Positions 1 through 12,713 of a stretch of 64,000 bases of DNA are shown piece by piece. The position numbers and the translations under genes were made by a program. How positions within the stretch are numbered: position 1 is the first letter of the stretch; each line of letters starts with the position of its first letter. The stretch comes from a virus (lineage: Duplodnaviria; Caudoviricetes), in IMG/VR virus record IMGVR_UViG_2974731583_000001, positions 1-64,000 of that record; one strand, 5' to 3'. A model generated the notes under the pieces. It had not been told where the DNA came from and did not search any database. It saw only the letters and a list, made by a program, of their open reading frames with translations.

Positions 1-1
1 G

Positions 2-75
2 TGGACCAGCTAGGGCTTGAACCTAGGACCTCCAGATTATGAGTCTGTTGCTCTAACCAACTGAGCTACAAGTCC
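2..75 (-). tRNA. tRNA with CAU anticodon, probably tRNA-Ile2 (lysidine type) rather than Met
   Basis: Minus strand GGACTTGTAGCTCAGTTGGTTAGAGC...GACTCATAATC...GGTTCAAGCC...GGTCCA folds as a cloverleaf. The GACTCATAATC anticodon arm resembles bacterial Ile2 tRNAs. Confidence 0.9.
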
Positions 76-188
76 TTATTAGATGATTGCCACATTAAAA
101 ACACTAACCGCGTTTCACAACGAAGTTAGTGGTCGTAGCAAATAACAGAAGATTTTAATAAATGGGGTTTGGCTTAATAAAAGTTTTG

Positions 189-257
189 TGCGTCTTATGA
201 GGCTCAAACTCATATCTACACACAAGTGTGTTGTGTTATCAGTTACACTAAAGACGC
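189..257 (-). ncRNA. tRNA-like element with a 4-nt anticodon loop (non-decoding tRNA or processing signal)
   Basis: Acceptor GCGTCTT/AAGACGC+A, D stem GTGT/ACAC, T stem ATGAG/CTCAT. The anticodon arm is ACACA-CTTG-TGTGT, a 4-nt loop instead of 7. Confidence 0.75.
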
Positions 258-520
258 TGGCACTTAGGTAGCCTTCACCGACTTTACGCTGCCTCCTGGA
301 GGCCCGTATAGTCTACAACGTTAATGTTGCCAGTTATATATAGTCAATACGCTTAATGTATTTACTTCCACCAACAATCAAACCCAAATCGCGCCCGTTT
401 TCGGTTCGGTTGTTTTTACATCTCGCGGTAGAACCGAAAATGTCATGGATGGTTCCTCGTGCACTGCGAACGTGGACGTGGAGGGATTCGAACCCTCGTC
501 TTGCTGGTATAACTCATACG
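258..520 (-). ncRNA. ssrA: Circularly permuted (two-piece) tmRNA: acceptor piece ~520-473, intervening segment 472-397, coding piece 396-~258
   Basis: The 3' module GACGAGGGTTCGAATCCCTCCACGTCCA precedes the 5' module GGGCGCGATTTGGGTTTGA. Together they form an acceptor stem with G3.U70 and A73. Helix TTGTTGGT/ACCAGCAA joins the two pieces. The tag frame 331-284 follows ATATAACT and reads GNINVVDYTGLQEAA-TAA. Confidence 0.88.
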
Positions 521-573
521 CGTAATTGAATTCTTGTAGGTATAATGTTGATCGGACAAAATACCTTAAATAA

Positions 574-5108: not shown

Positions 5109-5290
5109 TTGTGATAAACGATGGTTAAAATTATGAAACTAATTGTTAGAACCCATGTTAATGCTGCATAAGTATATGCTAATGCTGCACACATATGATT
5201 TCTTTTTGGGTATTTTTCAACCCATTTCGTGAGTACGCATGCGTATATCACGAACATTAAATCAACTACTATGAGAATTACGCTATTCAT
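5105..5290 (-). CDS. Small two-TM membrane protein
   Basis: 61 aa with two hydrophobic segments. Confidence 0.7.
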   Translation of the reverse strand: MNSVILIVVDLMFVIYACVLTKWVEKYPKRNHMCAALAYTYAALTWVLTISFIILTIVYHK

Positions 5291-5501
5291 ATATAATATA
5301 TATTTAGATATTGATTATCGAATATTATCTAACAAAAAACAGACCTATTCTCACGAACCAGTCTGCTAAATCGTAACGTTGGGAATTGCTTGTATGTAAA
5401 ACCAAATAAAAGTACTAATTAAAAACAAGCCTACCCTCACGGGCAAGCCTGTTTAGAGTCATGAGCATTTATTAAATAAATTTATTTTTAGGATTACGCT
5501 T

Positions 5502-5554
5502 AATCCCGACACGTACGTGTTTCGTCTTAATTTTCAAAGACTCATCAGGGGATT
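5502..5554 (-). ncRNA. Hammerhead ribozyme, type I
   Basis: AATCCC-CTGATGA-GTCTT(TGAAAATT)AAGAC-GAAA-CACGTACGTG-TC-GGGATT. The core is complete, all three stems form, and the GUC cleavage triplet is at 5510-5508. Confidence 0.92.
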
Positions 5555-6852: not shown

Positions 6853-6901
6853 TCACAGACACAGGTGTTATCCTGTGTTTCGTCCAGTCTCATCAGTGTG
6901 A
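6853..6901 (-). ncRNA. Hammerhead ribozyme, type I, minimal stem II
   Basis: TCACA-CTGATGA-GACTGGAC-GAAA-CACAGG(ATAACA)CCTGTG-TC-TGTGA, with GUC at 6860-6858. Confidence 0.85.
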
Positions 6902-7542
6902 ATTTTAACGTCTCCTGGATGACGTCCCTTAAAAAGAGAAACCCTGTAGTCTAGATGCAAGTGATGAGCTCACCTACAGGGCTTTTTCTGCATTCAACTG
7001 TTATCAACAGTCTCATTTTTAGTTATGTTTGGATCATAACTCCTATATTTCCAAAACACCATGGGCCTGACGGTGAATATAGGTTCGTTACAGATGCAGA
7101 TCTATAACTACCACTGCCTCCTTTACTCTGTGGTCTGCGGTTAGACTTTTTATTCACTTATAATTGCTTTACGTAATTGATAAGTAAATTTATTACACAT
7201 GTTGTTTGATTACAACATTGTGCCGGTTCTATCCTTTCCTTTAGAAGTCTAACTTAACTAGATACTTTTGAACCGTATATTTGTAGTCAATAGCTATCCG
7301 CCGCATTTTATATGTGGTGTTGGAACCGCCATTAGCTACAAAAATTTCTATTTAACATAACGACGCTATTTTACTATGTTGCTATAGTCTGCCCCAGCCA
7401 GTCGCGCGTCGGCGTTAGCCGACCGCGTCTTGGCGATAGTTTGAAGATAGTTTGAAGATAGGCTGAAGCGTTTATCTCGCATATATCCTGCCCCTGCATG
7501 TGGAACCTCGGAAGCGTTTATCTCGCATTCTTAAAAAACAAA

Positions 7543-12605: not shown

Positions 12606-12678
12606 TCCCCCGTGGCGTAACGATAGCGCGAAGAGCTCTAACCTCTTGTCAGTCTCGGTTTGAATCCGGGCGGGGGCA
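12606..12678 (+). tRNA. Amber suppressor tRNA (anticodon CUA), probably charged with Gln
   Basis: Acceptor TCCCCCG/CGGGGGC+A with an unpaired 1:72. Anticodon arm AAGAG-CTCTAAC-CTCTT places CTA at 12638-12640. T arm CTCGG-TTTGAAT-CCGGG. Confidence 0.92.
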
Positions 12679-12713
12679 CTATTTTCATAATACATTCATA
12701 ATATAAATTAAAC

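What the first reader, a model, noticed from the sequence alone, without database searches (positions are those of the whole stretch)
189..257. tRNA mimic with a 4-nt anticodon loop abutting the tmRNA coding piece
Seen: all four stems pair perfectly, but the anticodon loop is only CTTG, so it cannot decode normally. Its 5' end (257) lies ~26 nt after the tmRNA tag stop. Intact stems argue against simple decay. Inference: it may be an RNase P/RNase Z signal that generates the 3' end of the tmRNA coding piece, or a decoy for anticodon nucleases or synthetases.
Basis: partly seen in the sequence, partly recalled or inferred. Interest (0 to 1): 0.72.

Follow-up and report, generated by a model that had tools for sequence, protein, structure and literature searches.

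The report
tRNA mimic capping phage tmRNA
A gut crAss-like phage ends the message-carrying half of its two-piece ribosome-rescue RNA (tmRNA) with a tRNA look-alike that cannot decode, and related phages keep only its upper half, so it most likely tells the host's tRNA-trimming enzymes where to cut.

Summary
Confirmed. Window 257→189 (minus strand) is a 69-nt cloverleaf with four perfect stems, an intact tRNA core and a 4-nt CUUG "anticodon" loop. Rfam's tRNA model scores it 53.6 bits (cut-off 29).

The short loop is real. It recurs in RefSeq cr273_1 and in contigs from three independent RNA libraries (two carry CAUG).

The element starts 1 nt after pseudoknot 2 of a crAss-like phage two-piece tmRNA, where coding pieces normally end. 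In about 130 related phage loci (59 distinct elements) this slot always holds an acceptor stem plus a canonical T arm. The lower half ranges from a genuine tRNA-Met, through cloverleaves with 6-, 4- or 3-nt loops, to a bare minihelix. The stems covary, and G53-C61 is invariant. Only the tRNA top half, the part read by RNase P, RNase Z and CCA-adding enzyme, is under selection.

Best reading (about 0.6): an end-forming tRNA mimic that lets host tRNA-processing enzymes cut the coding piece out of a longer transcript. An anticodon-nuclease decoy is disfavoured. Cleavage is not shown, because only contigs, not reads, were available.

I found no paper describing it.

The parts
189..257 (-). tRNA-shaped element (69 nt): 7-bp acceptor, 4-bp D arm, 5-bp anticodon stem with 4-nt CUUG loop (226-223), 5-bp T arm, discriminator A189; no encoded CCA
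   Evidence: Sequence; Rfam tRNA 53.6 bits; not called by ARAGORN; identical in cr273_1; loop length kept in contigs of 3 RNA-library studies
258..258 (-). Single A between pseudoknot 2 and the mimic; predicted 3' end of the coding piece if RNase P cuts 258|257
   Evidence: Inference from tRNA geometry (7-bp acceptor + 5-bp T stem) and from 1-8 nt spacing in relatives
259..279 (-). Small H-type pseudoknot (PK2): S1 279-276 with 270-267, S2 273-271 with 261-259
   Evidence: Pairs 100% kept in 47 sequences, with compensatory changes in 3 of 7 pairs; the window itself supplies the S2 changes
284..331 (-). Tag reading frame GNINVVDYTGLQEAA plus stop
   Evidence: ARAGORN
258..396 (-). Predicted tmRNA coding piece (5' acceptor strand from G396, helix 2, tag, PK2)
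   Evidence: ARAGORN 5' tRNA domain; Rfam tmRNA_permuted alignment; 3' limit inferred
397..472 (-). Intervening segment removed during maturation
   Evidence: hypervariable hairpin modules of 50-180 nt in relatives
473..531 (-). tmRNA acceptor piece core: helix-2 3' strand, T arm 497-481, 3' acceptor strand 480-474, discriminator A473; no encoded CCA
97..188 (-). 3' trailer with interrupted GNRA-capped hairpin 131-102 and U run 101-97 (terminator-like); poorly conserved
   Evidence: Fold, z = -2.35; 10 differences in 107 nt in strain X5
1..75 (-). Genuine tRNA-Met(CAU), next gene downstream
   Evidence: ARAGORN and Rfam 65.7 bits

Best explanation
The element is a non-decoding tRNA mimic that marks the 3' end of the coding piece of a phage two-piece tmRNA. 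The tmRNA lies inside a longer phage transcript. Host tRNA-processing enzymes recognise the mimic's acceptor stem stacked on its T arm. RNase P cuts between A258 and G257, which leaves the coding piece ending 1 nt after pseudoknot 2. An RNase Z-type activity cuts after A189 and removes the trailer (in relatives, the next gene's mRNA). Together with the known RNase P and 3'-end steps at the tmRNA's own tRNA-like domain, three of the four ends of the two pieces would then be made by the tRNA pathway. The lower half of the mimic is not needed. The window's lineage carries a captured tRNA whose anticodon loop has shrunk to a stable CUUG tetraloop. Shown: the structure, the reality of the short loop, its position, and selection on the top half only. 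Inferred: which enzymes act, the exact cut sites, and the fate of the released 69-nt RNA.
For: (1) The cloverleaf is real and scores as a tRNA (53.6 bits). The tertiary core is kept (U8, A14, A15:U48, G18, U54:A58, U55, G53:C61, and 19:56 as A:U), read directly. (2) It starts 1 nt after PK2. Known two-piece tmRNA coding pieces typically end after PK2, and their maturation is ascribed to RNase P and tRNase Z (PMC3985003). (3) In 117 loci sharing the tmRNA core plus 10 loci with near-identical tags (one cut too short was excluded) and cr131_1 and cr124_1, the same slot, 1-8 nt after PK2, always holds an acceptor stem plus T arm. The lower half is 2-45 nt long. Examples: genuine tRNA-Met in L173 (67.7 bits); cloverleaf with a 6-nt loop in L172 (48 bits); 3-nt loop in L176; UUCG hairpin in L179; a 9-bp stem with a tetraloop in the L112 type; bare minihelix in the L080 type. 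(4) Covariation: 4 of 5 T-stem pairs change on both sides and 99.6% of cells are paired, with 0 of 500 shuffles reaching the observed score. In 59 distinct elements G53:C61 is 59/59, the T loop is TTCRAnn in 58/59, and acceptor pairs are 88-100% paired across about 20 different helices. (5) In strain X5 the element has 1 change in 69 nt (in the loop), against 10 in 107 nt in the trailer. (6) Neither the phage tRNA-Met nor the tmRNA acceptor piece encodes CCA, so endonucleolytic 3' trimming plus CCA addition must already act on this transcript. (7) In most relatives the next ORF starts about 10 nt after the element with no terminator between, so a cut is needed there.
Against: No RNA end was mapped, because only assembled contigs were available. 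Contigs of three RNA libraries run across 257/258, though they also cross the obligatory RNase P site 396/397. The window's version keeps a full, well-paired lower half that processing does not require. Position -1 is A, not the U preferred by bacterial RNase P. The window's phage has a terminator-like hairpin 60-90 nt downstream that could make a 3' end without the mimic. No comparable signal is seen at the 5' end of the acceptor piece. The acceptor-stem covariation control was weak because many stems are purine-rich repeats.
Confidence: 0.6

Rival explanations
1. The mimic is not cut off. It stays as the 3'-terminal domain of the mature coding piece, trimmed at A189 and perhaps CCA-tailed. 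There it protects the RNA from 3' exonucleases or offers a second tRNA-like handle for a tRNA-binding factor.
For: Selection on the acceptor/T arm is equally expected. RNA-library contigs reach into the element from the tmRNA side.
Against: A free-standing acceptor/T-arm helix with a single-stranded 5' junction is a standard RNase P substrate (own knowledge of minihelix model substrates), so escaping cleavage would need special protection. In L173 the slot holds a genuine tRNA-Met, which must be released to function. There is no G3:U70 or other conserved identity set.
Confidence: 0.2
2. It is a decaying tRNA gene of the adjacent tRNA cluster, with no function of its own.
For: It lies next to tRNA-Met and tRNA-Leu. 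The loop deletion kills decoding. No parental tRNA was found.
Against: All 21 stem pairs are intact. The only change in a 3% divergent strain is in the loop, while the trailer has 10 changes in 107 nt. Relatives keep the top half with compensatory changes even after losing the whole lower half.
Confidence: 0.07
3. It is a decoy that soaks up a host factor: an anticodon nuclease, a synthetase, or SmpB. The model for the last is the TLD-only tmRNA of mycobacteriophage DS6A.
For: tRNA-shaped decoys and a TLD-only phage RNA that inhibits tmRNA are described (PMC4131195).
Against: Anticodon arms are absent or unrelated in relatives. There is no G3:U70 and no tmRNA-type D-loop analogue. The phage's own tmRNA needs SmpB.
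Confidence: 0.05
4. It is an assembly or sequencing deletion in a normal tRNA gene.
For: None beyond the oddity of a 4-nt loop.
Against: The same loop length occurs in cr273_1 and in contigs of three further studies, two of them with a substitution inside the loop. Relatives show other short loops.
Confidence: 0.01

Closest known systems
mascRNA at the 3' end of MALAT1 (and the MEN-beta tRNA-like element)
   Same: A non-decoding tRNA-shaped fold directly abuts the end of a functional RNA. RNase P makes the upstream RNA's 3' end and RNase Z trims the mimic (own knowledge).
   Different: Vertebrate nuclear lncRNA; no common descent. Here the host is a bacterium, the upstream RNA is a tmRNA coding piece, and cleavage is only inferred.
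t-elements of plant mitochondria and the mitochondrial tRNA punctuation model
   Same: tRNAs or degenerate tRNA-like folds mark transcript ends for RNase P and RNase Z. The series from real tRNA to degenerate mimic is the same idea (own knowledge).
   Different: Organellar mRNAs, not a phage stable RNA. Here one fixed slot has been refilled by unrelated tRNA-derived modules.
Maturation of circularly permuted two-piece tmRNA (Alpha- and Betaproteobacteria, cyanobacteria)
   Same: Permuted gene. The coding piece carries PK1 and PK2 around the tag, and processing is ascribed to RNase P and tRNase Z at the tmRNA's own tRNA-like domain (PMC3985003; PMC11915505).
   Different: I found no description of a separate, self-contained tRNA-like module at the coding-piece 3' end. 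Rfam RF04321 stops at the tag stop codon.
Acceptor/T-arm minihelix model substrates of RNase P and CCA-adding enzyme
   Same: The L080-type relatives are natural minihelices: a 6-8-bp acceptor helix on a 5-bp T stem with a TTCGAYT loop.
   Different: Those are laboratory constructs (own knowledge); these are natural and conserved.
TLD-only tmRNA of mycobacteriophage DS6A
   Same: A phage-encoded tRNA top-half RNA linked to trans-translation (PMC4131195).
   Different: DS6A's RNA is a tmRNA tRNA-like domain thought to titrate SmpB. This element lacks G3:U70 and sits beside a complete tmRNA.

Membership tests
tRNA (Rfam RF00005), as a fold | Cloverleaf with 7/4/5/5-bp stems, scoring above the curated cut-off | tested here: met
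   53.6 bits against a gathering score of 29; no non-canonical pairs
tRNA, as a functional decoder | 7-nt anticodon loop with U33 and a 3-nt anticodon | tested here: not met
   The loop is 4 nt (CUUG; CAUG in two strains). ARAGORN gives no tRNA call
tRNA, as a functional decoder | Canonical T loop UUCRANY and G19:C56 elbow pair | tested here: inconclusive
   The T loop is UUUGAGC and the D loop has G18 A19, so 19:56 would be A:U, a possible compensated elbow
tRNA, as a functional decoder | CCA end and aminoacylation | not testable with these tools
   CCA is not encoded, but it is also absent from the phage tRNA-Met and the tmRNA acceptor piece
tRNA-like end-forming elements (mascRNA / t-element type; a functional class, not a homology family) | tRNA-shaped fold directly abutting the end of a functional RNA | tested here: met
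   1 nt after PK2 in the window; 1-8 nt in relatives
tRNA-like end-forming elements | Selection on the acceptor/T-arm domain only; the decoding parts are free to decay | tested here: met
   Lower half 2-45 nt long, T stem and acceptor covary, G53:C61 in 59/59
tRNA-like end-forming elements | Cleavage by RNase P at the 5' side and RNase Z at the 3' side | not testable with these tools
   Only contigs were available; they cannot show RNA ends
Two-piece (permuted) tmRNA, the neighbour | T arm and 3' acceptor strand upstream of the 5' acceptor strand; G3:U70; resume codon and tag ORF | tested here: met
   ARAGORN tmRNA*. In the window position 6:67 is C·A; cr273_1 has U:A
Two-piece (permuted) tmRNA, the neighbour | Rfam RF04321 gathering score (47 bits) | tested here: not met
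   40 bits in the window. Most relatives score 48.6-71 bits, a few score 32-43
Viral 3' tRNA-like structures (TYMV/BMV type) | Genomic 3' terminus with a pseudoknotted acceptor arm and CCA; aminoacylatable | tested here: not met
   The element is internal to a DNA phage transcript, has an ordinary acceptor stem and encodes no CCA
TLD-only tmRNA decoy (DS6A type) | tmRNA-type acceptor with G3:U70 | tested here: not met
   3:70 is G:C in the window; no G:U is conserved in 59 elements

The most novel reading that the evidence does not exclude
The mimic is more than a cut mark. After trimming and CCA addition it acts as a second tRNA-like domain, either attached to the coding piece or released. 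It would engage a tRNA-binding factor (EF-Tu, SmpB, CCA-adding enzyme or a synthetase) and so tune phage versus host trans-translation. That would make this a tmRNA system with two tRNA-like modules.
Probability: 0.1. Interest if true: 0.8.

Novelty: new variant of a known kind. Interest (0 to 1): 0.58.

Why it matters
How the 3' end of a two-piece tmRNA coding piece is made is poorly defined. Here a phage lineage appears to solve it by borrowing the tRNA pathway a second time. Nature has supplied a graded series (real tRNA, loop-truncated cloverleaves, minihelix) that shows which part of a tRNA is needed. This would be a prokaryotic counterpart of mascRNA and t-elements. It also corrects public annotation. 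The tmRNA feature in RefSeq crAss-like genomes follows ARAGORN, which simply adds 91 nt after the stop codon and so swallows this element. Finally, it warns that odd 'tRNA-???' or 'tRNA-Cys(ACA)' calls next to phage tmRNAs are not decoders.

Tried and rejected
**RNA evidence.**
- The single read-laying run returned only Logan contigs.
- Contigs of X10, X9 and X2 stop at 205, 216 and 238, and none covers 81-200, while X5 runs through. The stops are not at one place and no DNA run was laid beside them. I treat this as no evidence for an RNA end; at most it is compatible with a 3' end near 189.
- Contigs bridging 257/258 are equally uninformative, since they also bridge 396/397.

**Search for a parental tRNA.**
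- BLAST of the element against 50,697 phage records found only cr273_1.

**tRNA-like folds in the intervening segment.**
- A cloverleaf I thought I saw in the cr130_1 intervening segment is not supported by Rfam.
- ARAGORN at a relaxed threshold found nothing in 68 of 69 intervening segments.

**Acceptor-stem controls and alignments.**
- Chimera and shuffle controls were not discriminating, because many stems are GAA/CTT repeats.
- MAFFT alignment A3 did not keep the 5' ends flush. Acceptor counts therefore come from my own fixed-frame script, in which the 5' strand was chosen for best pairing and the counts lean towards pairing.

**Other checks.**
- A general tRNA-mimic punctuation system was looked for in the window. 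None was found beyond this element and the suppressor tRNA.
- RNase Z family search: the phage has none. The control list includes Bacteroides thetaiotaomicron but does not say whether it passes the cut-off.
- The whole-genome first-look tRNA search missed the element, as did the whole-window gathering scan. It appears only in the smaller search.

**Sources not available.**
- Papers PMC516066 and PMC16621 are not held.
- NC_055903.1 is not in the collection.

Full report
**What is there.** The window is a crAss-like phage genome (98,667 bp with terminal repeats). It is 99.4% identical over the tested 1.2 kb to RefSeq NC_055904, cr273_1 (Suoliviridae, Buhlduvirus, pig faeces). On the minus strand, 257→189 folds into a 69-nt cloverleaf:
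- a 7-bp acceptor stem, 4-bp D stem, 5-bp anticodon stem and 5-bp T stem, all Watson-Crick;
- a 4-nt loop CUUG (226-223) where a 7-nt anticodon loop should be;
- discriminator A189 and no encoded CCA.

Rfam's tRNA model scores it 53.6 bits (cut-off 29; E 1.9e-10) and aligns it end to end with three loop positions deleted. ARAGORN does not call it. The usual tertiary-core nucleotides are present: U8, A14, A15 with U48, G18, U54 with A58, U55 and G53:C61. The elbow pair 19:56 is A:U instead of G:C. I read this from the sequence, so it is inference. The cloverleaf is iso-energetic with the MFE fold (-19.0 against -19.6 kcal/mol).

**Not chance, not an artefact.** A strict scan of all 64 kb for an acceptor helix plus T arm found only this element and the suppressor tRNA at 12,606. 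Shuffles gave about 0.1 hits. The 4-nt loop is identical in cr273_1. Contigs from RNA-library runs of three further studies (X5, X9, X10) cover it without any indel. X5 and X9 carry one substitution, loop CAUG. In the X5 strain, all 31 differences and 7 gaps are listed. The element has 1 change in 69 nt, the tmRNA 2 in about 300, and the 107-nt trailer downstream 10 (Fisher p = 0.05 and 3e-5).

**Context.** Upstream lies a circularly permuted tmRNA:
- T arm 497-481, 3' acceptor strand 480-474 and A473;
- a 76-nt intervening segment;
- the 5' acceptor strand from G396 (G3·U70), then helix 2;
- the tag GNINVVDYTGLQEAA, with its stop at 286-284.

After the stop comes a small H-type pseudoknot at 279-259. 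Its seven pairs are kept in all 47 aligned relatives, with compensatory changes in three. Then comes A258, then the mimic. [quoted passage not shown] The mimic therefore sits exactly at the expected 3' end. The annotated tmRNA end (193 here, and the RefSeq feature in cr273_1) is an ARAGORN convention. In every locus it equals the stop codon plus 91 nt.

**Relatives.** Three pattern scans of IMG/VR and one of metagenome contigs, plus RefSeq cr130_1, cr131_1 and cr124_1, gave about 130 loci of this phage tmRNA family, with 59 distinct post-PK2 elements. In all of them an acceptor helix and a T arm begin 1-8 nt after PK2. What lies between the two varies from 2 to 45 nt:
- L173: a genuine tRNA-Met(CAU), 67.7 bits, homologous to the window's tRNA-Met. 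In L173 it abuts PK2 directly and no mimic is present.
- L172: a perfect cloverleaf with a 6-nt loop (Rfam 48 bits; ARAGORN "tRNA-???").
- The window: a 4-nt loop.
- L176: a 3-nt loop.
- L112 type: a 9-bp stem with a tetraloop and a stub D arm.
- L179: a UUCG-capped hairpin.
- L005 type: no D arm (ARAGORN "tRNA-Cys(ACA)").
- L080 type: a bare minihelix.

The modules are not alignable with one another outside the top half, so the slot seems to have been refilled several times.

**Covariation.** On MAFFT alignment A2, four of the five T-stem pairs change on both sides and 99.6% of cells are paired. No shuffle out of 500 reaches the observed score, and slid controls fall to 46-62% paired. In a fixed frame over the 59 elements:
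- G53:C61 is 59/59.
- The T loop is TTCRAnn in 58/59; the window has TTTGAGC.
- T-stem pairs are 95-100% paired.
- Acceptor pairs are 88-100% paired across about 20 different helices.

The acceptor counts lean towards pairing, because the 5' strand was picked for best fit, and my chimera control was weak.

**Mechanism.** Selection acts on the tRNA top half only. That is the part read by RNase P, RNase Z and CCA-adding enzyme (established knowledge). The phage tRNA-Met and the tmRNA acceptor piece both lack encoded CCA, so endonucleolytic 3' trimming and CCA addition must already act on this transcript. In most relatives the next ORF starts about 10 nt after the element, with no terminator between. 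I therefore infer that RNase P cuts at 258|257 and gives a coding piece of about 139 nt capped by PK2. An RNase Z-type cut after A189 then frees the trailer. L173 is close to a natural swap experiment: where the mimic is missing, a real tRNA abuts PK2. Which enzymes act, the exact cut sites and the fate of the 69-nt product are all inferred.

**RNA data.** Only contigs were served, and they cannot show ends. They cross 257/258, but they also cross the obligatory RNase P site 396/397. Neither bridging nor the lack of cover at 81-200 is used as evidence.

**Rivals.**
- A retained 3' domain (0.2) fits the same conservation. It requires escape from RNase P and does not fit L173.
- Neutral decay (0.07) is contradicted by the covariation and by the low substitution rate.
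- Decoy readings (0.05) lack any conserved anticodon arm or identity set.
- An assembly error (0.01) is excluded by independent assemblies.

**Known or new.** The tmRNA itself is annotated in RefSeq, and permuted phage tmRNAs are catalogued (PMC11915505). I found no paper on a tRNA-like module ending the coding piece. Another note (e1-5914883) gave the tag that led me to the closest relatives. Functionally the nearest things are mascRNA/MALAT1 and plant mitochondrial t-elements. There is no homology to either.

Noticed in passing
L174:5150-6250 (IMGVR_UViG_3300028591_000014): In a close relative, the T loop of the permuted tmRNA acceptor piece appears split after GGCGGTT by about 830 nt. The insert holds a group I intron (Rfam 83.6 bits, 5264-5519) and an ORF-sized stretch. 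The sequence resumes with CGATTCCGCC plus the 3' acceptor strand. A gene that is both permuted and intron-bearing is not among the three forms listed in PMC11915505.
   Followed up: partly
window 391 (minus strand, tmRNA position 6): The window's tmRNA acceptor stem has a C6·A67 mismatch where cr273_1 has U6:A67. The X2 contig 238-644 matches the window exactly, so the mismatch is not private to this assembly.
   Followed up: partly
window 397-472 and the intervening segments of L003-L164: The excised segment between the two tmRNA pieces is hypervariable (50-180 nt, 69 distinct versions). It is built from hairpin modules. One hairpin is always kept just upstream of the coding-piece 5' end and is sometimes duplicated.
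   Followed up: partly
window 539-565, minus strand: A conserved hairpin lies just upstream of the tmRNA acceptor piece, with covarying stems and a conserved CTGATCA-containing loop, in all three tmRNA subgroups. It may mark the still undefined 5' end of the acceptor piece.
   Followed up: no
window 12606-12679, plus strand: tRNA with anticodon CUA (ARAGORN 'tRNA-Pyl', Rfam 41.9 bits). This is an amber suppressor, in keeping with TAG recoding in this phage group.
   Followed up: no
window 6853-6925, minus strand: RAGATH-1 hammerhead ribozyme, 73.2 bits. The same leftward arm thus also uses self-cleaving RNA for transcript processing.
   Followed up: no
L001:3639-4008, L002:2023-2413 and other RefSeq crAss-like records: Public tmRNA features end at the stop codon plus 91 nt (an ARAGORN convention). 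They therefore include most of the downstream tRNA-like module and cut it 4-7 nt short.
   Followed up: yes
59 post-PK2 elements: In 55 of 59 elements the base after the 7-bp acceptor frame is C. In many it can pair with a G at -1, giving an 8-bp acceptor helix of the tRNA-His type. The window (A73, A-1) and L173 do not share this.
   Followed up: no
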